Source: Shigella phage ESh20. Taken from it: a DNA stretch of 64,000 nt. The stretch lies in sequence record ON528730. One strand, written 5' to 3'. Position numbers and translations under genes: made by a program. The notes below the pieces were generated by a model. It had not been told where the DNA came from and searched no databases. It worked only from the letters and a program-made list of their open reading frames with translations. Position 1 is the stretch's first letter; each line of letters starts with the position of its first letter. This document shows, one piece after another, positions 26,172 to 52,673 of the stretch.

Positions 26172-27067
26172 TATGAACTTCCTTCTTGTTGAGATTTATC
26201 TTTTCTGCCTTTGACGATTTGGGCGACTTCTGCCATAATCCCATAATCACCACCTGCTACTGTTTCTTTACCAGCAATGAAATAGTCGTTGCTATTGTTT
26301 GTTTTGCTGACTTTTAAATAATCTTTACTGGTACTTCCACCAGTTTTATCCACTCTTACATAACCATCTCTTACACCTGCATCTGCAAAACTACCTAATT
26401 TATTTGCTTCTAGAGAGCCACCTGTGTTGTTCGTAATAAGACCCTTGTTAGTGTTTGTTACAAACCAGTTATTGTTCTCATCAGTAATTGCCAGAGATGA
26501 ATCAGCAACCTCTACAGGAGTCCAAGCAGTACCATTTAAGGTAACATCTCTAAGGATAACTGCTGAACCAATAGTTGTTGCAGCAATCTTAGAAAGTGTG
26601 TATGCTGTATCTAACACGTTATTACGAGTGTTTACACGGATAACAATTCCACCAGTCATTGGCGTAATGTGCTCAAAAATCTGACTGAATGATGCGTTGT
26701 AAAGGGTCATAACAGCCCTTTGTAAGAAGCTTGGTGTGGTGTCAGAACGTCTTAAGAAAATTTGAATGTAGAGGATAGCTCTGTAAGTGTCATCATCAGC
26801 ACCAATAGGTCTAGGGACTTTAATCAAAGCCCCGATGTTATCAAGTTGTGTGCCAACACCTACACGAATATTTCTTTCAGTATATAACTGATTACTGATA
26901 TCCTCTAATAATTGTAACTCATCTGTGATAGATTTCAATAGACTTGTGTAAATAAACTTATCTTTGAATTGTGTTACAGTTCTTTCGTCCAATGTTTTCT
27001 CATAAAAGTTTTCAATCTTTTTAAACATTGTTACTCCTTGGTAATTGTATACTGTGAGCTTTCCCAA
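26171..27067 (-). CDS. Putative baseplate/tail fibre attachment protein
   Basis: Position between baseplate genes and tail fibres; no motif verified. Confidence 0.35.
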
Positions 27068-45611: not shown

Positions 45612-45687
45612 TGGAGTATCGGAAGGGACTCGAACCCTCATAAACCTGTTTTGCAGACAGGCACATAACCATTTCTGACACCGACAC
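45612..45687 (-). tRNA. tRNA-Cys (anticodon GCA)
   Basis: Acceptor GTGTCGG/CCGATAC, discriminator U, anticodon loop CUGCAAA, T-arm GAGGG-TTCGAGT-CCCTT, CCA encoded. Confidence 0.7.
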
Positions 45688-45693
45688 ATAATT

Positions 45694-45786
45694 TGGAGGA
45701 AGATACCAGACTTGAACTGGTACGCCGATTTCTCGGTTACTGGCAGTTTAGCAAACTGCTCCCTTACCTTTTAGGGTTAATCTTCC
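45694..45786 (-). tRNA. tRNA-Ser (anticodon GCT), type II
   Basis: 7-bp acceptor, T-arm ACCAG-TTCAAGT-CTGGT, long variable arm, anticodon loop TTGCTAA, 3-bp D stem. Confidence 0.65.
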
Positions 45787-45787
45787 A

Positions 45788-46522
45788 TTATTTGTTCAGA
45801 GCTTCTTTCATCTCTGGAGTTGCGATAGTATCAATCACACCAGTTTTACATGAATCATCAAACCAGCTTGGTAGAACATTCGCAAGGAAACCATTAATAT
45901 TTGTTTTCAGGTATTCTGCAATCAGTGCTGCTTCATCTGCAATCATCTGAGTTACTTCATTAGCATATGCAGTAATCTTTGCAATACCCTCATTAATCGC
46001 TGTAACGGCCTGTGTAGCGAGTTCAGAGATTGTATCTAGTCCTTGGTCGATTGCATCTTGCAAATCGCTTAGAACGCTATTTACAGCGTCTATGGAGGTA
46101 TTAATCAAATCCATCGCTTTATTACCGTACTCGGTAGCTACGCCCATGATACCGCTAAACGGTGTACATCCAACCTGTTCACCTGCTGCCCCCATAACGT
46201 TAGAGTAACCTTTAGCCACTTGCATACGTTGTGAAAACTCATCTACAGACTTTTGTCCATACTCAGTAAGTGTACTTGTCGTTGAAGTTGTACTTCCAAG
46301 GCTTGTTGTGAAGCTTCCTAATAAGGCTGTTGTCAGTCCAGCAGCAACTAAAATCTGTTGTGTAGCTGGGTCTGTTACAGAACTAATTGAGTTAACTAAT
46401 GATTGAGAGGCAGCTATAGTACCACCAAGAACTGCTGCACCAGTAATAAGAGGGTTTGAGAAACCATTACCAGTTTTAAGGAGATTAAAAATCTCTTTAC
46501 TTTGTTCTGTCATCTCTTTCAT
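45788..46522 (-). CDS. Hypothetical protein embedded in tRNA array (about 244 aa)
   Basis: ORF track frame; start moved to ATG 46522 to avoid overlap with tRNA at 46539. Confidence 0.45.
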   Translation of the reverse strand: MKEMTEQSKEIFNLLKTGNGFSNPLITGAAVLGGTIAASQSLVNSISSVTDPATQQILVAAGLTTALLGSFTTSLGSTTSTTSTLTEYGQKSVDEFSQRMQVAKGYSNVMGAAGEQVGCTPFSGIMGVATEYGNKAMDLINTSIDAVNSVLSDLQDAIDQGLDTISELATQAVTAINEGIAKITAYANEVTQMIADEAALIAEYLKTNINGFLANVLPSWFDDSCKTGVIDTIATPEMKEALNK

Positions 46523-46538
46523 TATGCACCTATAAAGT

Positions 46539-46614
46539 TGGTAGCCCATCGGGATTTGAACCCTGTTCTCATGTTTTTCAGACACGCGCTTTAACCATAT
46601 AAGCTAATTGAGCT
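46539..46614 (-). tRNA. tRNA-like gene, tentative tRNA-Phe (anticodon GAA), imperfect T-stem
   Basis: Anticodon arm CGTGT-CTGAAAA-ACATG, T-loop TTCAAAT with only 3 clean stem pairs, acceptor pairing 6/7. Confidence 0.4.
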
Positions 46615-46621
46615 ATTAAAT

Positions 46622-46698
46622 TGGGGTGACCTACGGGAATCGAACCCGTATAGACCATGTTCACAGCATGGGTCATTATCCATTTATGATAAGGCCAC
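46622..46698 (-). tRNA. tRNA-His (anticodon GTG)
   Basis: Acceptor GTGGCCT/AGGTCAC, discriminator C, T-arm ACGGG-TTCGATT-CCCGT, anticodon loop CTGTGAA. Confidence 0.7.
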
Positions 46699-46729
46699 AT
46701 TTAAGGACTCTCGTAAGAACCCTTAGAAG

Positions 46730-46805
46730 TGGCAGCAGTATAAGGATTTGAACCTTAATCTTTCAGCTTCAGAGGCTGGAGCATTGCCAGTTATGCTATA
46801 CTGCT
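46730..46805 (-). tRNA. tRNA-Gln (anticodon CTG)
   Basis: Perfect 7-bp acceptor, T-arm TAAGG-TTCAAAT-CCTTA, anticodon loop CTCTGAA. Confidence 0.6.
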
Positions 46806-46811
46806 AATATT

Positions 46812-46890
46812 TGGTACTCCATATCGGATTCGAACCGATACATAACACAGATTTTAAATCTGGCCTCTCTGCCAATTGGAGTAATGGAGC
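46812..46890 (-). tRNA. tRNA with Leu-type anticodon TAA (tentative), short variable region
   Basis: T-arm ATCGG-TTCGAAT-CCGAT, anticodon loop TTTAAAA, Leu-like D-loop containing CCAATTGG. Confidence 0.45.
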
Positions 46891-46892
46891 AT

Positions 46893-46968
46893 TGGCGGGG
46901 GATGATGGAATTGAACCATCTTCTTCGATTTCAAAGACCGAGGTTTTAACCTTGTAAACTAATCCCCT
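46893..46968 (-). tRNA. tRNA-Gln (anticodon TTG)
   Basis: T-arm GATGG-TTCAATT-CCATC, anticodon arm TCGGT-CTTTGAA-ATCGA, A1:C72 mismatch at acceptor end. Confidence 0.55.
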
Positions 46969-47194
46969 AACGAACTCTTGAAAGAATATATGCGTTATTG
47001 CAAGTATCCTTATTTTCAGGTAGTGATGTTTCGAAGATAACTTGCTTAAGTTCTAATCCAGCAAAGTTATAAACAATCTTTCTAACTTCTAACGGGTCAC
47101 ATTGCCAACCAACCGCTATAAAGAAAGTATCTCCAAATCTACCTGTTTCAATCTTGTGGTCATCTTTATGTTTTTCAACTATGAGTTTATACAT
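46967..47194 (-). CDS. Hypothetical protein within tRNA array (75 aa)
   Basis: ORF track; fills gap between two tRNAs. Confidence 0.35.
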   Translation of the reverse strand: MYKLIVEKHKDDHKIETGRFGDTFFIAVGWQCDPLEVRKIVYNFAGLELKQVIFETSLPENKDTCNNAYILSRVR

Positions 47195-47212
47195 AATGTT
47201 ACCTATTAAATT

Positions 47213-47289
47213 TGGTGCAGAATAGAGGATTCGAACCTCTAACTAACAACTTCGTAGGTTGCTGCTCTATCCATTTGAACTAATTCTGC
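47213..47289 (-). tRNA. tRNA-Arg (anticodon ACG)
   Basis: Perfect acceptor GCAGAAT, T-arm AGAGG-TTCGAAT-CCTCT, anticodon loop CTACGAA. Confidence 0.7.
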
Positions 47290-47467
47290 AATATCCTTTT
47301 GAGATTCCTGTCTAGCTCTCTTCTTATCTCTTCTGAGAAAGCGTTTACGATGGTCTGTACGCCATTTGTAATAATCTTCTTCACCATCATGTGCTGCACA
47401 GCAGCCACAACTTGCAATTTCAACTTTACCATGTCTACCATAAGGCTTCATAGGAATCTCCTAAAAT

Positions 47468-47545
47468 TGGTGTTCCAAGACGGATTCGAACCGTCACTAA
47501 TACAAGGTTTGAGCTTGCATCCTCTGCCAATTGGGATACTGGAAC
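47468..47545 (-). tRNA. tRNA with Leu-type anticodon CAA (tentative), short variable region
   Basis: T-arm GACGG-TTCGAAT-CCGTC, anticodon arm GCAAG-CTCAAAC-CTTGT, D-loop with CCAATTGG. Confidence 0.45.
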
Positions 47546-47546
47546 T

Positions 47547-47621
47547 TGGTACTCGCTGAAGGACTTGAACCTTCTTCACCAACTTGTAAGGATGGAGCTT
47601 TACCATATAAACTAAGCGAGC
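47547..47621 (-). tRNA. tRNA-Val (anticodon TAC)
   Basis: T-arm GAAGG-TTCAAGT-CCTTC, anticodon loop CTTACAA. Confidence 0.55.
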
Positions 47622-47716
47622 TTTGAAGAGGTCTGAAGCTGTGCCGCTAACTCAACTCCGTGGAATTTGTTACGGTCTTCAGTTGACTCAAGCGGTCTTT
47701 CACTTGACCTCAAAAT

Positions 47717-47792
47717 TGGTGCTCCCACAAGGATTCGAACCCTGATAAGTTGCTTACAAGGCAACCGTAATAGCCAATTATACGATAAGAGC
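47717..47792 (-). tRNA. tRNA-Thr (anticodon TGT)
   Basis: T-loop TTCGAAT, anticodon arm GTTGC-CTTGTAA-GCAAC, acceptor with two G:U pairs. Confidence 0.55.
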
Positions 47793-47798
47793 ATTATT

Positions 47799-47873
47799 TG
47801 GAGCATCCAGAGGGAATCGAACCCTCAACCTCAGTTTGGAAGACTGTAATTTTCCCGTTTAAACTATGGATGC
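47799..47873 (-). tRNA. tRNA-Gly (anticodon TCC)
   Basis: Perfect acceptor GCATCCA, T-arm GAGGG-TTCGATT-CCCTC, anticodon loop CTTCCAA. Confidence 0.7.
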
Positions 47874-47879
47874 ACTAAT

Positions 47880-47955
47880 TGGTGGAGAAGCAGGGAATTG
47901 AACCCTGTACTTAAGTTTGCAAAACTTATGTTTTAACCATGTAAACTACATCCCC
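47880..47955 (-). tRNA. tRNA-Ala (anticodon TGC)
   Basis: T-arm CAGGG-TTCAATT-CCCTG, anticodon loop TTTGCAA, G3:U70 wobble pair characteristic of tRNA-Ala. Confidence 0.7.
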
Positions 47956-47961
47956 ATTGTT

Positions 47962-48037
47962 TGGTACAGGTGGAGGGAATTGAACCCATCATCTTACTGA
48001 TTAAGAGTCAGCCGCATAACCATTTTGCTACACCTGC
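47962..48037 (-). tRNA. tRNA-Lys (anticodon CTT), T-stem with only 3 clean pairs
   Basis: Acceptor GCAGGTG/CACCTGT, anticodon arm CTGA-CTCTTAA-TCAG, T-loop TTCAATT. Confidence 0.5.
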
Positions 48038-48043
48038 ATTAAT

Positions 48044-48120
48044 TTGGTACACCTAGAGAGATTCGAACTCACACTGAGCAGATTCTAAGTCTGCTGCCTC
48101 TTCCAATTGGGCTATAGGTG
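48044..48120 (-). tRNA. tRNA with Leu-type anticodon TAG (tentative), short variable region
   Basis: Anticodon arm GCAGA-CTTAGAA-TCTGC, 3-bp D stem with loop CAATTGGAAGA. Confidence 0.45.
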
Positions 48121-48376
48121 CATTAAATCTTTGTAGAGAACTGCTAAGACGCCAAAGCAACAATGGTATCAAATGCCTTAACAATTCTCTAAAAAGACCT
48201 ATTGGCCTTTGCATAGTCTTGCTTAATCCGGTGACTAGAACCTTTGGAGAGCTTGATACTATCTCTTCTCCGTGACACCTACTAGGTGCTTTACCAGTGC
48301 CGTGTACGCCAATACACGAAGAGGAAACCTGAAACACTTGCTCGAACAAATAGTCTCAGCTTTAAATCTTATTAGG

Positions 48377-48464
48377 CGGTAGATAAAGGAGTCGAACCCT
48401 CACCGTATCTCTACAATGGCAATAGTTTTCAAGACTATTTGGCTTCCATTAGCCGCTACCTACC
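48377..48464 (-). tRNA. tRNA-Ser (anticodon TGA), type II, CCA not encoded
   Basis: T-loop TTCGACT, long variable region, anticodon arm ATAGT-CTTGAAA-ACTAT, acceptor GGTAGGT/ATCTACC. Confidence 0.5.
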
Positions 48465-48477
48465 CCTAATAAGACTT

Positions 48478-48560
48478 TGGCATGGGACGGAGGATTCGAA
48501 CCCCTTTGAGTAAGTTTTGGAGGCTTACGCACATGCCTTAGTGTCTTAACATCGTCCCAT
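48478..48560 (-). tRNA. tRNA-Trp (anticodon CCA), enlarged D region
   Basis: Perfect 7-bp acceptor ATGGGAC/GTCCCAT, T-loop TTCGAAT, anticodon loop CTCCAAA, about 8 extra nt in D region. Confidence 0.5.
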
Positions 48561-48724
48561 ACTATATTTCGAAGCTTACCCTGTTATCTCAACACTGTCA
48601 AGCTTCTTCTCAGATTATTTACATGTTCTGGAAAACATGAGATACAGACCACCTCCTTATGAGATTGACTCTTTCAAGTCAATGCGGAGACCCATAAAGG
48701 TCGTCATAGTAATCTGCTAACTAA

Positions 48725-48843
48725 TTGGCAGTCAAGGTAGGAGTCGAACCTACTTACTATTAAAGGGAGCTACCCTTCAGCAACTATCCGACTTTCGTTT
48801 ATCTCTTAACGCGTATCCAAGATAACTTACTCGTGTTGTCTTG
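48725..48843 (-). ncRNA. tRNA-like element with about 40-nt internal insertion (not a canonical tRNA)
   Basis: CCA-rc and 7-bp acceptor AGTCAAG paired with CTTGACC 119 nt apart; canonical T-arm GTAGG-TTCGACT-CCTAC; no canonical anticodon arm identified. Confidence 0.4.
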
Positions 48844-48854
48844 ACCATTAAAAT

Positions 48855-48931
48855 TGGCACACCCTACAGGATTCGAACCTGTAACTGACGGTTTAGAAGA
48901 CCGTTGCTCTATCCGTTTGAACTAAGGGTGC
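48855..48931 (-). tRNA. tRNA-Arg (anticodon TCT)
   Basis: T-arm ACAGG-TTCGAAT-CCTGT, anticodon arm ACGGT-CTTCTAA-ACCGT. Confidence 0.7.
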
Positions 48932-49178
48932 ATTATCTTTAAAGGCTCTCTTAGAAAACCCTTAAAGATGCCCACTTTATTAATCATACCGTGGGCTAGT
49001 ACGCCAAATTCTTTAACAGGGAGTTGGAATACCCTGCTGGTGTTTAGCCTATTAAGCTACTGCCAGAAAAACATTATCGTTTGCATTTATTTTTAAGTTT
49101 TTAAAATAGACGCTACGCTAACGAAAACTAAGGTTATCTTAAAGTGGTCACATCTGAATGTCAACAACTTTATGAAAT

Positions 49179-49254
49179 TTGGTACTGGTAGGTGGAATCG
49201 AACCACCGATATTCCCTTATCAGGGGAGTGTTATAACCTTCTTAACTATACCAG
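49179..49254 (-). tRNA. tRNA-Ile (anticodon GAT)
   Basis: T-arm GGTGG-TTCGATT-CCACC, anticodon loop CTGATAA. Confidence 0.65.
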
Positions 49255-49256
49255 CA

Positions 49257-49333
49257 TTGGAGGTTCAGGTGGGAATCAAACCCACATTCATAGGGCTTAT
49301 GAAACCCTTGCATTACCTTATCTGCGACTGAAC
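49257..49333 (-). tRNA. tRNA-Met (anticodon CAT), elongator-type (G1:C72 paired)
   Basis: Perfect acceptor GGTTCAG, T-arm GTGGG-TTTGATT-CCCAC, anticodon loop TTCATAA. Confidence 0.6.
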
Positions 49334-49415
49334 CATTATAAGTTGCCCCTTTGTAGAGAACTGATTGAGTGGGTGTTTCCAGCCGCGCATGTGTTCTTCA
49401 GTTAAGGGGCGAATT

Positions 49416-49491
49416 TGGTAGAAGTGGAGGGATTCGAACCCGTCGCCTGTCAGATTAAAAGTCTGCCGCATCACCATTCTGCTACACTTCC
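49416..49491 (-). tRNA. tRNA-Lys (anticodon TTT), same T-stem pattern as Lys(CTT)
   Basis: Anticodon arm CAGA-CTTTTAA-TCTG, T-loop TTCGAAT with 3 G:C pairs. Confidence 0.5.
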
Positions 49492-49914
49492 ATTAAATCA
49501 TCTTTGCAGTAACCTACGCAAACCTTGCTAAAGGGTTTGTAGAGTCATCTCTTATAAGCTAATCTAGAATCATGCTCAAGAGACTCTTCGGCACTCATGG
49601 GACGACTGGTTAGCTCCATAAGTCACTGCAAAGAGGATTACCAGACCGTATTTATCTTAAGTGCTTCCATTACACCAACACGCCGTAACGTGTGAAGGAA
49701 TCGAACCTTCGCCTTTTCTTTATAAGAGAAATAGATTGTTTATTGTTTGCTGTAAACGGTCTTCTGTAAAATTGTTGGAACCAGACCAAGTTTTAAATTT
49801 TTCAAATTAAATTGGCTTGAAATATTAAAATTGCTTGCTGTATTTGGTCTTCTGCTCCTTTAAAGAATACTCGTAAGAACTCTTTAAGGGAGGGGCTAAA
49901 AAGCCCTCTCAAAT

Positions 49915-49991
49915 TTGGCGGTTACGAAGGGATTCGAACCCTCATCATCCTCCGTGACAGGGAGGTATTTTGACCAGTTAAACTACATAAC
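49915..49991 (-). tRNA. tRNA-Asp (anticodon GTC)
   Basis: T-loop TTCGAAT, anticodon arm CCTCC-CTGTCAC-GGAGG. Confidence 0.7.
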
Positions 49992-49997
49992 CTTTAT

Positions 49998-50085
49998 TTG
50001 GTGCGCCGTGAAGGAGTCGAACCTCCCGAGTCATAATGACAAGTGATTTACAGTCACCACCGCTTCCATCTACGGGATAACGACG
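49998..50085 (-). tRNA. tRNA-Tyr (anticodon GTA), type II
   Basis: T-loop TTCGACT, long variable arm hairpin, anticodon loop CTGTAAA, 3-bp D stem. Confidence 0.6.
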
Positions 50086-50154
50086 CATTTTATTCTATTC
50101 AGGCTAAGGACTTGCACCTTACAAATCGGTGAGCAATCGCTTCTCTCCCAAATC

Positions 50155-50231
50155 TTGGCGGTTAGTCAGGGATTCGAACCCTGTACCATTCGGTTAACAG
50201 CCGACCGCACATGCCTTATGTGCTTCCTAAC
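50155..50231 (-). tRNA. tRNA-Asn (anticodon GTT)
   Basis: T-arm CAGGG-TTCGAAT-CCCTG, anticodon arm TCGG-CTGTTAA-CCGA. Confidence 0.65.
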
Positions 50232-50315
50232 CATGTTAGTATTACCAGACCGTATCTTTTCATTTTTTGCCTATAAAAAATTTTAAGTGTTTGCTGTAAA
50301 CGGCCTTCTGTAAAT

Positions 50316-50392
50316 TTGGAGGCGGGTGTAGGAGTCGAACCTACCGATAACATGCTAATGAGACATGTGAGACACCCTTTCTCTATACCCGC
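50316..50392 (-). tRNA. tRNA with CAT anticodon and unpaired position 1:72 (initiator-like or Ile2-like)
   Basis: T-arm GTAGG-TTCGACT-CCTAC, anticodon loop CTCATTA closed by T:G pair, U1:C72 mismatch. Confidence 0.5.
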
Positions 50393-50479
50393 AATTCTTA
50401 ATGACCAGACCAAATCTTTTTTGGATTTCTATGCGCGAAATTGAAAAGTTTGTTTGCTGTAATTGGTCTTCTGTCAAAA

Positions 50480-50557
50480 CTGGCATTCCCGAAGGGACTT
50501 GAACCCTCAAACCACACCTTGAAAGGGTGTTGACTTTACCTAATTTGTCTACGGGAA
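50480..50557 (-). tRNA. tRNA-Glu (anticodon TTC)
   Basis: Perfect acceptor CGGGAAT/ATTCCCG, T-loop TTCAAGT, anticodon arm ACACC-CTTTCAA-GGTGT. Confidence 0.7.
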
Positions 50558-50563
50558 TATAAT

Positions 50564-50643
50564 TTGGTCTCCGTTGAAGGATTTGAACCTTCGACCCCTT
50601 GCTCCCAAAGCAAGTGCTGCTAAACCAAACTGAGCTAAACGGA
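50564..50643 (-). tRNA. tRNA-Pro (anticodon TGG)
   Basis: Perfect acceptor, T-arm GAAGG-TTCAAAT-CCTTC, anticodon arm CTTGC-TTTGGGA-GCAAG. Confidence 0.7.
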
Positions 50644-50775
50644 GATAATCTTTTTAACAACCTATGTAACAACTATAACACTATTTTTTAGTGTCTGTCA
50701 AGAGGTTTTTTAAAATAATTTGATTTATTTCAGAAAACTTCTTTTTCGTTTCTATGTAGAACATATTAAAGGGTA

Positions 50776-50806
50776 TTAAACACTTTGTCAATACCCTTTT
50801 TAAAAC
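50776..50806. terminator. Hairpin between vWA gene and tRNA array
   Basis: AAGGGTATT-aaacactttgtca-AATACCCTT followed by TTT. Confidence 0.4.
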
Positions 50807-50809
50807 TTT

Positions 50810-52225
50810 TTACCAATCGTAGCGTTCAATAATTACTGCTTTGAGCATTACGCTGATAGGGTCAAACTTCTCACCACCAAGCAAAGCTTTTAAAGTGGCT
50901 GGAGAGAAACCAGATACCATCGCTACACCGTTATCCTTTACAGACACTTCGCAAGTACCGTTACGGTTTGCTAAGTACCAGAATACCAGTTGTGGCATCT
51001 CATATCCAGCTTTCTTGTACTTTTCTTGAATTGCTTCAAAGTTAGTACGACCATCTGCTCCATCAACCTGATTAAACTGCATATCAGAGAAGATGATAAG
51101 CTTACTAGGCATCTCTTTCTGAGTCAAGTTGTTTTTAACACCAGTCTCAAGGATTCTTGCAAAAGCAGCTTGTAGGTCAGTTGAACCATACTCTACATGA
51201 CTCTTCACTTGACGTAAGCGAGTCTGTAAATCACCACTCAATGTGATGAAGTGAGGTCTGCTAGAGTAAACCATCAATTCATCTTTAAAGCAACCTGTAT
51301 TACGTTCTGAAACGTACAGGGCTAAAGATACACCAATGTCTAGCGCTGTAACAGAACCATGTCGCTCCCAAGTCATAGATGAAGATACATCTGCCATGCA
51401 CAGAATGTTCTCACCCTCTTTCATCCAGTTTGGTAAAGCTTTCCACTGCTCATTTGCAACGGTTGCATTACCATAACCGACTGACTTTGTAATGTCATAA
51501 GGGTAGACTGCACCAGCATTAATCTTTGTCTCACCTTTAGTCAGTGCTGCAATGTATGCTGCATAACGCTCACCATCTTTACGACTGAAGAGTTTTTGAT
51601 AACGTGCAGCAGCCAGTGAAGGAAGCTTGCTGTAATCAATCTCTCCGAACTCATTTGCTGAAATCTTTTGTTCAACAGTATCAGACAGTGCTGACAGAAG
51701 AACTCGATACTGCTTCTCTGAAAGATTTGCAAACTTACAGAAACGACGAACAAAACGCATGTGTCGTGATTTTACTCGTGGTAACCATTTTGCTGCCAGA
51801 GCCGATGTTGCAGGGTCTAACAGTGCAGCTTCTAAATGCTTGAAAGCATCTGTTTCGTAACGTGTACCAACAAAGATTTTAAAGTCGTCATAACGACCTA
51901 AATCAGAAATCTTGTCCATGATACGTAACACTTGGAACTCATCAAGAATCCCGTCAGAGATTGCTTTAGTAAGAGTATAACGGAACGCTTTACGCTCACC
52001 CATACCTTCTCGTGCATCTCGCATATGTAACAGGATTCGAACTGCTACATCAATATCTTCTCGCATTGCCTTGTAAAACAAGTTTGGAAGAACTTCTACG
52101 TTTGTTCTGCTTGAACCAGCAGCTTTGTAGAAATCTACCAGTGCAGACATTGAAGAGGTGTGGTTAACAGCACCGTTTTCAGTTAAACCTGCATGTAAAT
52201 GCGAGTGTTTAAATAATTCGCTCAT
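50810..52225 (-). CDS. vWA-domain protein with N-terminal domain of unknown function
   Basis: MIDAS-like DxSxS motif in ILCMADVSSSMTWERHG at about residue 279; 471 aa; adjacent to tRNA array. Confidence 0.55.
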   Translation of the reverse strand: MSELFKHSHLHAGLTENGAVNHTSSMSALVDFYKAAGSSRTNVEVLPNLFYKAMREDIDVAVRILLHMRDAREGMGERKAFRYTLTKAISDGILDEFQVLRIMDKISDLGRYDDFKIFVGTRYETDAFKHLEAALLDPATSALAAKWLPRVKSRHMRFVRRFCKFANLSEKQYRVLLSALSDTVEQKISANEFGEIDYSKLPSLAAARYQKLFSRKDGERYAAYIAALTKGETKINAGAVYPYDITKSVGYGNATVANEQWKALPNWMKEGENILCMADVSSSMTWERHGSVTALDIGVSLALYVSERNTGCFKDELMVYSSRPHFITLSGDLQTRLRQVKSHVEYGSTDLQAAFARILETGVKNNLTQKEMPSKLIIFSDMQFNQVDGADGRTNFEAIQEKYKKAGYEMPQLVFWYLANRNGTCEVSVKDNGVAMVSGFSPATLKALLGGEKFDPISVMLKAVIIERYDW

Positions 52226-52301
52226 ATTAATTCTCTCTCGTTAGAATGTTTTGGTGAGACAGACTCTAGCGTTTAATTTAGAACCTGTCAACACCTTTTT
52301 A

Positions 52302-52673
52302 TTATTTTTTCAGAGTTGCTACAGCAGAGAACGTTGGTTTGTTCTCCTGTGCTCCCTGCCCTCCATTTTCAGAAGGTTTTTTACTATCTGCTGCAATTGC
52401 TTTCATCTCACCTGCTGAGTGAGTCATGATGGTTTTACCAGCTTCCATCATGGACTTTAAGTTTACATCTTCAGCCTTTAATCCGAACTCTGCAAGCTTG
52501 TCAGCATTACGTGTGACAATGGCCTCAAACAGCTTTGCAGCATACTCTGCTGAGTTATCAATAGTCAACTGTGCCTTGACCAGTGAACTCTTGTTACGTG
52601 AGCCTTTGGGTCTACCTGATGGGTTACCAGATTGACCTTTCTTGAATTGGCCTTTGTTTGTTCGTTTCGTCAT
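52302..52673 (-). CDS. Small basic protein with GNPSGRPKG motif (possible DNA-binding or terminase small subunit-like)
   Basis: N-terminal KGQSGNPSGRPKGSRNK; function not verified. Confidence 0.3.
   Translation of the reverse strand: MTKRTNKGQFKKGQSGNPSGRPKGSRNKSSLVKAQLTIDNSAEYAAKLFEAIVTRNADKLAEFGLKAEDVNLKSMMEAGKTIMTHSAGEMKAIAADSKKPSENGGQGAQENKPTFSAVATLKK

What the first reader, a model, noticed from the sequence alone, without database searches (positions are those of the whole stretch)
50810..52225. vWA/MIDAS-domain protein of unknown role flanking the tRNA array
The C-terminal half carries a clear metal-ion-dependent adhesion site signature (ILCMADVSSSM) typical of von Willebrand A domains. 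The N-terminal 270 aa have no motif I can name. vWA proteins are not standard phage structural or replication components, and its position between the tRNA array and a GNPSGRPKG-motif protein is unexplained.
Basis: partly seen in the sequence, partly recalled or inferred. Interest (0 to 1): 0.55.

Follow-up and report, generated by a model that had tools for sequence, protein, structure and literature searches.

The report
Phage Ro60-like protein with partner RNAs
The gene encodes a phage version of the ring-shaped RNA-binding protein Ro60, whose close relative in coliphage Bas63 is reported to defeat the bacterial Ppl defence. Just downstream, among the tRNA genes, lie four unannotated small RNA genes of a conserved family that accompanies this protein in many unrelated phages.

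Summary

It is the syntenic ortholog (84% identity) of Bas63 gp130. A 2024 preprint shows that gp130 counters the Ppl defence, even when moved into T7. The protein is therefore a known kind, not an orphan.

What I did not find described is a conserved RNA family next to this gene. It lies on the gene's strand in 55 of 86 loci from very different phages. Its parts are a covarying terminal stem, an invariant (U)UACAGCAA motif and a CUG(N)UAA tail. Some copies also carry a permuted tRNA-like domain, as in bacterial YrlA Y RNAs.

The window holds four copies among the tRNAs, 0.3–1.2 kb downstream of the gene. That explains the gene's position. The short form resembles Dictyostelium Class I RNAs (Rfam hits below threshold).

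Best reading: a divergent Ro–Y-RNA-type particle used in counter-defence or RNA quality control. RNA binding itself is inferred, not shown.

The parts
50810..52225 (-). Gene for a 471-aa Ro60-like protein: an N-terminal helical-repeat domain (DUF2828) plus a C-terminal vWA domain with a complete MIDAS site (DUF7788). It is the ortholog of Sf17 gp023 and Bas63 gp130.
52263..52291 (-). Sigma-70-like promoter site (TTGACA-17-TAGAGT) in the 76-nt gap upstream of the gene. It overlaps a strong hairpin.
   Evidence: Consensus scan, 10 of 12 matches. Hairpin z = -3.7. This is a consensus match only. The total number of such sites in the region is no higher than in shuffles.
50672..50799 (-). Terminator-like hairpin (50768-50799) and two promoter-like sites (50763-50791 and 50672-50701), between the stop codon and the first tRNA.
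   Evidence: Consensus matches only.
50399..50473 (-). Short partner-RNA candidate 1: stem AGACCAA/UUGGUCU, motif UUACAGCAA, tail GGUCA. It fills the tRNA-Glu/tRNA-Met spacer.
   Evidence: Model R2, 47.6 bits, E 3.9e-7 over 1.5 Mb. Rfam Dicty_Class_I_RNA 21.3 bits.
50239..50310 (-). Short partner-RNA candidate 2: stem AGGCCGU/ACGGUCU, motif UUACAGCAA, tail GGUAA. It fills the tRNA-Met/tRNA-Asn spacer.
   Evidence: R2, 55.4 bits, E 5.5e-9. Rfam Dicty_Class_I_RNA 22.2 bits.
49775..49854 (-). Short partner-RNA candidate 3: stem AGACCAA/UUGGUCU, motif AUACAGCAA.
   Evidence: R2, 35.6 bits, E 2.8e-4 over 1.5 Mb and E 1.6e-6 over 8.5 kb.
49632..49766 (-). Long partner-RNA candidate. In order it has: terminal stem AGACCGU (49762-49756) paired with ACGGUCU (49649-49643); motif UUACAGCAA (49755-49747); an anticodon-like hairpin (49731-49715); a T arm (49710-49694); an acceptor stem closed by a loop (49693-49678); and a D arm (49675-49661). 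This amounts to a permuted tRNA-like domain set inside the short module.
   Evidence: Model R1, 86.6 bits, E 4.4e-14. R2 recognises the same ends with a 63-nt insertion, 36.5 bits. Rfam tRNA model 30.1 bits on 49686-49760. Two compensatory pairs in the closed acceptor hairpin between Mooglevirus and Felixounavirus.
45612..50644 (-). Array of 26 tRNA genes on the same strand. It forms the transcription and processing context for the four RNA candidates.
   Evidence: ARAGORN. Rfam.
52302..52673 (-). Upstream neighbour, a 123-aa DUF5681 protein with the GNPSGRPKG motif. It is context only and not a conserved partner.
   Evidence: Pfam DUF5681 and PHROG 4114. Co-occurs only in Ounavirinae and L015. 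No NCBIfam or PDB match.

Best explanation
The gene encodes a divergent Ro60-type protein: a helical-repeat domain closed by a vWA/MIDAS domain. It is probably made early, from host-type promoters, together with the tRNA array.

I infer that it binds the small RNAs encoded next to it. These RNAs have a terminal stem, a single-stranded (U)UACAGCAA motif and a CUG(N)UAA tail, with or without an embedded tRNA-like domain. They would be released from the tRNA transcript by the host's tRNA-processing enzymes.

By analogy with Ro60-Y RNA particles, the RNA would gate or tether the protein to host RNA-handling enzymes. The particle would then protect or clear structured RNAs during infection.

The one phenotype known for the family is that the Bas63 ortholog counters the Ppl defence.

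What is shown: the fold, the orthology, the linkage of the gene to the RNA family, and covariation in the RNA. What is inferred: protein-RNA binding, RNA processing, and the route from this particle to Ppl resistance.

For: Orthology and phenotype. The protein is 84% identical to bas63_0130 over 471 aa, with the same neighbours. Deleting gp130 gives tiny plaques on a Ppl strain, complementation rescues this, and transferring gp130 rescues T7 (PMC11482910).

RNA family. A descriptor for 'T arm, closed acceptor hairpin, D arm' found elements only on the gene's strand, with none in shuffled sequence. They do not overlap called tRNAs. A terminal stem and a CAGCAA motif that were not part of the descriptor turned out to be conserved. 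That stem is 89.6% paired, with 7 of 7 pairs changed on both sides, against 31-49% in other registers.

The covariance models give 115 of 115 hits (R1) and 127 of 128 hits (R2) on the gene's strand in 1.5 Mb. 55 of 86 loci carry a significant element, and 53 of 98 elements lie within 500 nt of the gene. 35 of 41 protein clusters at 70% identity have one.

Rfam's YrlA model independently hits the long elements of the Enterococcus and Klebsiella phages (44.9 and 39.6 bits, E 1e-6 and 3e-5).

Other lines. In Listeria phages the gene sits among RtcB, RNA ligase and phosphoesterase genes. A canonical phage Ro60 binds phage Y-like RNAs and host PNPase (PMC12135203).
Against: No experiment shows that this protein binds any RNA.

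gp130 alone, from a plasmid or from the T7 genome, restores T7 growth on Ppl. The phage-encoded RNAs are therefore not required for that phenotype, unless host RNAs substitute.

Pfam TROVE is not matched at E <= 1. Profile matches to Ro60 sequences are not significant (E about 1).

The window's long RNA is not matched by Rfam YrlA even at E <= 10. The short RNAs score below Rfam's gathering score for Class I RNA.

Expression and the ends of the four RNAs are not measured.

The reverse association (does the RNA predict the protein?) could not be tested.
Confidence: 0.6

Rival explanations
1. The protein works alone as a direct protein-level inhibitor of the Ppl effector, for example through its vWA/MIDAS face. 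The adjacent RNA elements play no part in that function.
Against: This does not explain why a conserved, covarying RNA family follows the gene across 35 of 41 protein clusters on the same strand. It also does not explain why the whole Ro-like ring, and not only the vWA domain, is conserved. Plasmid-borne gp130 raised T7 plating efficiency above the no-defence control, which points to a more general role.
Confidence: 0.2
2. The protein is a quality-control or repair scaffold for the phage's own tRNAs. It would hold misfolded or nuclease-cut tRNAs for repair or decay. The tRNA-like RNAs would be decoys or regulators, as in the bacterial rsr-yrlA-rtcBA operon.
For: In 44 of 89 loci tRNAs lie within the fetched flanks (up to 10 kb each side). 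Every one is on the gene's strand, and in 24 loci the nearest tRNA is under 1 kb away. RtcB, RNA ligase and phosphoesterase genes follow the gene in Listeria phage List-36, and Rnl2 lies nearby in Aeromonas phage LAh_9. The long RNA form is a tRNA mimic.
Against: About half of the loci have no tRNA within the fetched flanks, yet many of these still carry the RNA elements, for example mycobacteriophage L005. No RNA ligase or RtcB gene is annotated in the 21 kb of the near-identical Sf17 genome around the gene. The rest of the window was not screened. Bas63 tRNAs are mostly non-essential.
Confidence: 0.3
3. The RNA-like elements are cis-acting sites on the mRNA or on the DNA, such as autoregulatory operators or processing signals for the gene, rather than free small RNAs.
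For: 39 of 55 loci have an element within 500 nt of the gene, upstream (32 elements) or downstream (66 elements). In Listeria phage CKA15 three copies lie between a promoter-like site and the gene's start codon.
Against: Elements also occur 1-9 kb away inside tRNA arrays, in several tandem copies, and with a complete tRNA-like domain. In the window each short copy exactly fills a spacer between two tRNAs, so tRNA processing would release it.
Confidence: 0.1
4. The protein is a virion or assembly component, such as a vWA co-chaperone or an injected protein.
For: The Listeria homolog CKA15_055 was detected in purified particles with 20 peptides and 57% coverage. MoxR-vWA chaperone pairs are known in other viruses.
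Against: The authors themselves caution that sensitive mass spectrometry picks up non-structural proteins. The gene lies outside the structural modules and next to sigma-70-like promoter sites. No AAA+ partner gene is annotated next to it in Sf17. The whole-chain fold match is to Ro60, not to assembly chaperones.
Confidence: 0.07

Closest known systems
Ro60 / Rsr with Y RNAs (metazoan Ro60; Deinococcus and Salmonella Rsr with Yrn1 and YrlA)
   Different: 11-16% sequence identity. No Pfam TROVE match. The N-terminal domain is about 270 aa (DUF7788 begins at residue 275), and the whole protein is 471 aa against 496-538 aa for the solved Ro60/Rsr chains. The RNAs carry a (U)UACAGCAA motif and a CUG(N)UAA tail that are absent from the Rfam YrlA consensus. 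In the window the tRNA-like domain is opened between the D arm and the anticodon arm rather than in the anticodon loop. Most copies have no tRNA-like domain at all.
Bas63 (Felixounavirus JohannRWettstein) gp130, a counter of the Ppl defence
   Same: 84% identical over the full 471 aa. Same neighbours: DUF5681 gene upstream and tRNA-Pro downstream. The same four RNA elements are present.
   Different: A different genus (Mooglevirus). The phenotype has not been tested for this phage. The preprint only guessed that some annotated tRNAs might be Y RNAs. The elements found here are unannotated spacers.
Thermus phage phiLo Ro60 with Yrl1 and Yrl2 (PDB 9l5y, 9kop)
   Different: phiLo Ro60 is deposited as a 'TROVE domain-containing protein', whereas the window protein has no Pfam TROVE match. 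Sequence identity is 14-16%.
Dictyostelium Class I RNAs (Rfam RF01414)
   Same: Both have a short terminal stem whose sequence varies while pairing is kept. Both have a conserved single-stranded motif directly 3' of the 5' stem strand (CCUUACAGCAA in Dictyostelium, (U)UACAGCAA here). Both start with AAG and end with CUG(U), have an A/U-rich variable middle and are about 60-75 nt long. RF01414 is the top non-tRNA Rfam hit on all three window copies tested and on six elements in other phages.
   Different: Scores of 21-31 bits lie below the gathering score of 41.5. The hosts are phages of bacteria. There is no DUSE promoter. Some phage copies carry a tRNA-like insertion. The known direct binder in Dictyostelium is the RRM protein Rnp1A. 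Whether dictyostelids encode a DUF2828 protein could not be checked here.
Listeria phage CKA15_055 (P100-like phage)
   Same: A member of the same DUF2828 family: tblastn matches in P100-like Listeria phages show about 30% identity over 97% of the query. The published HHpred best hit is Rsr. The gene lies downstream of the tRNAs. The authors proposed nearby abundant RNAs as Y RNAs. Three copies of the short RNA lie directly upstream of the gene.
   Different: The hyper-abundant region the authors describe (record positions 26,236-26,727) is not matched by the models built here. The protein was detected in virions.

Membership tests
Ro60 / TROVE proteins | Sequence match to the Pfam TROVE domain (PF05731) | tested here: not met
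   The Pfam scan at E <= 1 returns only DUF7788, DUF2828 and a chance Tachylectin hit. Profile matches to Ro60 chains have E of about 1-2.
Ro60 / TROVE proteins | Helical-repeat (HEAT-like) domain joined to a vWA domain in the Ro60 arrangement | tested here: met
Ro60 / TROVE proteins | MIDAS motif in the vWA domain | tested here: met
   D279, S281, S283, T349 and D381 are invariant in 44 sequences. The motif aligns with DVSASM of Ro60.
Ro60 / TROVE proteins | Binds Y RNA on the outer surface, and binds the 3' ends of misfolded RNAs in the central cavity | not testable with these tools
   Only genomic linkage to candidate RNAs is shown.
YrlA-type bacterial Y RNA (Rfam RF02553) | Reaches the Rfam gathering score of 69 bits | tested here: not met
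   The window element has no YrlA hit at E <= 10. Related elements in L007 and L002 score 44.9 and 39.6 bits, which is significant but below threshold.
YrlA-type bacterial Y RNA (Rfam RF02553) | tRNA-like domain with a T arm, an acceptor stem closed by a loop and a D arm, enclosed by a long stem | tested here: met
   Descriptor hit at window 49661-49710 (minus strand) with a 7-bp enclosing stem. Two compensatory pairs in the closed acceptor hairpin.
YrlA-type bacterial Y RNA (Rfam RF02553) | GNCGAAN0-1G motif near the 5' end, the proposed Rsr-binding site | tested here: not met
   GGCGAAG occurs only at the junction between the variable region and the T arm (49713-49707). The 5' region instead carries UUACAGCAA.
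YrlA-type bacterial Y RNA (Rfam RF02553) | Encoded within 4 kb of the Ro ortholog on the same strand (criterion of Chen et al. 2014) | tested here: met
   The four window copies lie 0.34-1.18 kb downstream on the minus strand. The criterion is quoted.
Dictyostelium Class I RNA (Rfam RF01414) | Reaches the Rfam gathering score of 41.5 bits | tested here: not met
   Window copies score 22.2, 21.3 and 21.2 bits. Other phage copies score 25.7-30.7 bits.
Dictyostelium Class I RNA (Rfam RF01414) | Short stem joining the 5' and 3' ends, kept by compensatory change | tested here: met
   Short-form alignment: 93.2% paired against 31-47% in slid registers, with 8 of 8 pairs changed on both sides. The same stem in the independently selected long set is 89.6% paired.
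Dictyostelium Class I RNA (Rfam RF01414) | Conserved 11-nt motif CCUUACAGCAA next to the 5' stem strand, with an AAG start and a CUGU end | tested here: inconclusive
   9 of the 11 motif positions match in the window (UUACAGCAA). CAGCAA is invariant or nearly so in both alignments. AAG and CUG flank the stem. The RNA ends are not mapped, and the first two motif positions differ.
Dictyostelium Class I RNA (Rfam RF01414) | Dictyostelid genes with a DUSE promoter | tested here: not met
   The sequences come from phages of bacteria. The feature is described.
Bas63 gp130-type Ppl counter | Orthology: high identity over the full length, with the same neighbours | tested here: met
   84% identity over 471 of 471 residues with no gaps. 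Same flanking genes.
Bas63 gp130-type Ppl counter | Relieves Ppl-mediated restriction | not testable with these tools
   The phenotype is reported only for Bas63 gp130.
Pfam DUF2828 / DUF7788 (PHROG 850) | Scores above the curated cut-offs | tested here: met
   DUF7788 scores 149.8 bits (cut-off 27.1) and DUF2828 scores 95.1 bits (cut-off 29). PHROG 850 E 3.4e-178 over the full length.

The most novel reading that the evidence does not exclude
DUF2828/DUF7788 proteins define a second Ro-type ribonucleoprotein family that has gone unrecognised. Its RNA partner would be the stem-(U)UACAGCAA-CUG module found here, sometimes fused to a permuted tRNA.

That module would be the same kind of RNA as the orphan Class I RNAs of Dictyostelium. 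Pfam, as I recall it, lists DUF2828 as found in eukaryotes and viruses; this was not checked here. If so, Class I RNAs would be Y-RNA analogues bound by a eukaryotic DUF2828 protein, and phages and eukaryotes would share an ancient RNP.
Probability: 0.2. Interest if true: 0.9.

Novelty: new variant of a known kind. Interest (0 to 1): 0.72.

Why it matters
The protein alone is a known kind. It is a Ro-like anti-defence protein present in about 700 of 50,697 sequenced phage records.

The apparently new part is a concrete candidate RNA partner. Two papers had only guessed that one exists. The partner is now defined by coordinates, a conserved motif, a covarying stem and two covariance models.

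This makes several questions directly testable:
- what phage Ro-like proteins bind;
- how a Ro-type particle could blunt a bacterial defence such as Ppl;
- why these genes sit beside tRNA arrays.

If the likeness to Dictyostelium Class I RNAs reflects shared ancestry or a shared binding mode, it offers a first lead for RNAs described as abundant, developmentally regulated and not found outside Dictyostelia.

It also marks many "intergenic spacers" in phage tRNA arrays as probable genes.

Tried and rejected
- **PDB sequence search.** phmmer of the protein found nothing. The profile search gave only non-significant Ro60 hits.
- **NCBIfam.** No family for either protein.
- **DUF5681 neighbour.** No PDB or NCBIfam lead, and it co-occurs only in Ounavirinae and L015. 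I rejected it as a system component.
- **AlphaFold-database fold search.** This was meant to find eukaryotic, especially Dictyostelium, DUF2828 proteins. The library was unavailable.
- **Avesson 2011.** This paper names the four Class I RNA-binding proteins. It is not held.
- **Reverse association by pattern scan of viral contigs.** My pattern demanded TT-W-CAGCAA exactly 3 nt after AAGGAT. It returned eight matches with no DUF2828 match, no tRNAs and R2 scores of at most 22 bits, which I read as chance matches. The result says nothing either way.
- **Relaxed structural descriptor.** Too permissive: 224 hits in shuffled sequence. I used it only to pick out canonical-looking extra cases.
- **GGCGAAG as a YrlA Rsr-binding motif.** Rejected, because it sits at the junction of the variable region and the T arm and is expected by chance about once per array.
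- **Pairing of UUACAG with the CUGNUAA tail.** It is possible on paper, with one bulge, but it would cross the terminal stem. I left it open.
- **CKA15 hyper-abundant RNAs (CKA15_059-061).** Not matched by my models, so the published RNA-seq cannot yet count as expression evidence for this family.
- **Fold z-scores of tRNA-array spacers.** Several are strongly negative, but they overlap promoter and terminator hairpins and are not specific.
- **Literature searches.** Searches for DUF2828, Ro-like proteins with phage Y RNA, the motif string, and Class I RNA with phage found no prior description of this RNA family.
Full report
**1. What is there**

The ORF at 50810-52225 on the minus strand is real. 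It has an ATG start and encodes 471 aa. It carries the quoted ILCMADVSSSM. On the same strand a 123-aa ORF (52302-52673) lies upstream, and 26 tRNA genes (45612-50644) lie downstream.

The window is 99.5% identical to Shigella phage Sf17 (Mooglevirus, Ounavirinae). There the ORF is gp023, annotated 'RNA-binding protein; DUF2828'.

**2. The protein**

Pfam splits it into DUF2828 (best-scoring stretch 171-269, E 5.5e-27) and DUF7788 (275-455, E 8.8e-44). PHROG 850, 'RNA-binding protein', matches end to end (E 3.4e-178).

More than 2,300 relatives were found. tblastn finds the family in 709 of 50,697 phage records: Ounavirinae, KVP40-like vibriophages, P100-like Listeria phages, Enterococcus, Staphylococcus, Campylobacter, Bacillus and jumbo phages. 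It also occurs in mycobacteriophages, where it is annotated 'Ro-like RNA binding protein'.

In 44 sequences that are 41-87% identical to the window protein, the complete MIDAS set is invariant (D279, S281, S283, T349, D381). So are many basic residues of the N-terminal half (R40, R72, R78, R111, K146, R150).

At the sequence level the link is not significant: there is no TROVE hit, and profile E-values are about 1. The protein therefore works like a Ro60 by fold. It is a member of DUF2828/DUF7788, not of Pfam TROVE.

**3. What is already known**

The PhageMaP preprint (PMC11482910) studied Bas63, a Felixounavirus. It reports the following:
- gp130 is Ro60-like by structure and lies directly upstream of the tRNAs.
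- Deleting it gives tiny plaques on a strain carrying the Ppl defence.
- Complementation rescues this.
- gp130 moved into T7, on a plasmid or in the genome, restores T7 plaques on Ppl.

I fetched the Bas63 record. bas63_0130 is 471 aa and lies between the DUF5681 ortholog and tRNA-Pro. It is 84% identical to the window protein without gaps.

For the Listeria phage homolog CKA15_055 the published HHpred best hit is Rsr. The gene lies downstream of the tRNAs, and the protein was found in purified particles.

A canonical phage Ro60, from Thermus phage phiLo, binds two phage Y-like RNAs and host PNPase.

**4. Why the gene sits by the tRNAs**

I collected 89 loci: annotated phages plus 80 viral contigs. 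In 44 of them tRNAs lie within the fetched flanks (up to 10 kb each side). Every such tRNA is on the gene's strand, and in 24 loci the nearest is less than 1 kb away. In List-36 the gene is followed by RtcB, RNA ligase and phosphoesterase genes.

**5. A partner-RNA family**

*First clue.* In the window, Rfam's tRNA model gives a marginal hit (30.1 bits) in a 424-nt gap of the array. Aligning this gap with Felixounavirus showed three things:
- a perfectly conserved T arm, followed by a hairpin and then a D arm, which is a permuted tRNA;
- two compensatory pairs in the hairpin (ACACGU/GCGUGU against ACUCGG/UCGAGU);
- a variable 'anticodon' loop.

*Descriptor scan.* A descriptor for 'T arm, closed acceptor hairpin, two nucleotides, D arm' found such elements in many unrelated loci. 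All lie on the gene's strand, with none on the other strand and none in shuffled sequence. Hits with hairpins of at least 6 bp overlap no called tRNA. Several lie in the unannotated gap right next to the gene:
- 293 nt after it in Klebsiella phage FBKp34;
- 175 nt after it in mycobacteriophage Wigglewiggle, which has no tRNA nearby;
- two or three copies before it in Enterococcus phage EFDG1.

*Independent check.* Rfam's YrlA model hits the Enterococcus and Klebsiella elements over its full length at 34-45 bits (E 1e-6 to 1e-3). This is below its 69-bit gathering score.

*Features not in the descriptor.* Extending the flanks revealed two:
- a 7-11-bp terminal stem whose sequence differs in every lineage;
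- an almost invariant (U)UACAGCAA directly after the stem's 5' strand, with a CUG(N)UAA tail after its 3' strand.

That stem is 89.6% paired, and all 7 pairs have changes on both sides. Other registers give 31-49% (in one search the true register is the '+1' row).

*Model R1.* A covariance model built from 22 elements found 115 hits in 1.5 Mb, all on the gene's strand. They include strong hits that were not in the training set. The window copy scores 86.6 bits.

*Short form and model R2.* Many weaker R1 hits were about 70 nt long and lacked the tRNA-like core. A second model built from these found 128 hits, 127 of them on the gene's strand.

*Totals.*
- 55 of 86 loci have a significant element.
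- 53 of 98 elements lie within 500 nt of the gene. About 5% would be expected if they were spread evenly over flanks of up to 10 kb.
- 35 of 41 protein clusters at 70% identity have one, and 10 of 10 at 50%.
- With filters off, the window has exactly four copies: 50399-50473, 50239-50310, 49775-49854 and the long 49632-49766. Nothing comparable occurs elsewhere in 8.5 kb. The default-filter scan of the whole 64-kb window found nothing outside the tRNA-array region either.
- Each short copy in the window fills a spacer between two tRNAs, so tRNA processing would release it.

**6. Resemblance to Dictyostelium Class I RNAs**

Among the 4,227 Rfam families, the only non-tRNA family that repeatedly hits these elements is Dicty_Class_I_RNA. 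It scores 21-22 bits on three window copies and 26-31 bits on six elements in Aeromonas phage LAh_9 and two uncultivated phages. The alignments are always full length and on the gene's strand. All scores are below the 41.5-bit gathering score.

The published definition of Class I RNA fits the phage short form feature by feature:
- an AAG start;
- a short covarying stem;
- the motif CCUUACAGCAA next to the 5' strand;
- a variable A/U-rich middle;
- a CUGU end;
- a length of about 60 nt.

The authors found no such RNAs outside Dictyostelia. Pfam, as I recall it, describes DUF2828 as a family of eukaryotes and viruses. I could not check whether dictyostelids encode it. This remains a resemblance, not a membership.

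**7. Mechanism**

*Shown:*
- the Ro60-like fold (predicted model);
- orthology to a Ppl counter;
- tight, strand-specific linkage to a covarying RNA family, part of which mimics tRNA.

*Inferred:*
- the protein binds these RNAs, with the stem plus the CAGCAA motif as the likely handle;
- the RNAs are cut out of the tRNA transcript;
- the particle acts on structured RNAs or RNA-handling enzymes during infection.

*Against an obligatory RNA role:* gp130 alone helps T7 on Ppl.

The rival readings are a direct protein inhibitor, a tRNA repair scaffold, cis-regulatory elements and a virion protein. They are weighed in their own section.

**8. Limits**

- There are no expression or binding data for this phage.
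- Helices 2-4 of the long model were required by my own descriptor, so only helix 1 and the motif count as independent evidence.
- E-values from the session's models are rough.
- The reverse association (does the RNA predict the protein?) was not established.
- Absence of a prior description rests on Rfam 15 and the held literature only.

**9. Verdict**

The protein is a new member of a known, recently characterised kind. The gene together with its RNA family is best filed as a new variant of the Ro-Y RNA theme.

Noticed in passing
window 47622-47716 (-): The 95-nt spacer between tRNA-Val and tRNA-Thr is 96.5% identical to Felixounavirus, against about 85% for neighbouring spacers. It folds into one long imperfect hairpin (z = -3.6). 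Possibly another structured RNA or a processing element.
   Followed up: partly
window 48932-49179 (-): This gap in the tRNA array starts with a promoter-like site (TTGACA-17-TAAGAT, 49164-49136). About 200 nt of strongly structured sequence follow (z = -4.8), with a degenerate tRNA-like stretch and weak tmRNA-like Rfam hits (20-30 bits). It is 90% conserved in Felixounavirus.
   Followed up: partly
L007 (Enterococcus phage EFDG1) 6071-6421 and 1-227: The tRNA array of this phage holds a full tmRNA (140.6 bits) and the 3' part of a ROOL RNA (64.3 bits, cut by the locus end). In the displayed stretch neither position carries an annotated feature.
   Followed up: no
L092 (Listeria phage CKA15) 2877-3368 and 4048-4322: The published hyper-abundant non-coding region (CKA15_059-061) is not matched by my RNA models. 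Three copies of the short RNA lie 0.7-1.4 kb further downstream, between a TTGACA...TATCAT promoter-like site and the Ro-like gene.
   Followed up: partly
L060 11569-11624, L034 3039-3095, L067 14524-14579: In several long elements the loop that closes the acceptor hairpin begins with NCCA straight after the 7-nt 5' strand. It looks like a tRNA 3' end joined to a tRNA 5' end, which hints at an origin from permuted or tandem tRNAs.
   Followed up: no
L009 (Aeromonas phage LAh_9) 5917-9965: At least seven tandem or near-tandem short RNA copies precede the Ro-like gene. An SPFH/band-7 gene follows it directly, and an Rnl2 RNA ligase gene lies 3.7 kb downstream.
   Followed up: partly
L046 11924-11978: A hit to the cyanobacterial sRNA NsiR1 just below its gathering score (37.7 against 39 bits, E 8e-4). 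It lies about 170 nt after a short RNA copy.
   Followed up: no
window 47239-47451 (-) and 47213-47289 (-): A 70-aa ORF that Sf17 annotates as a hypothetical protein overlaps tRNA-Arg(ACG) by about 50 nt. One of the two annotations is probably not a real gene product.
   Followed up: no
window 52302-52673 (-): The DUF5681 protein (GNPSGRPKG motif) has no match in NCBIfam or the PDB. It accompanies the Ro-like gene only in Ounavirinae and one related contig. In Staphylococcus phage SEP9 the gene immediately upstream of the Ro-like gene is a small terminase subunit.
   Followed up: partly
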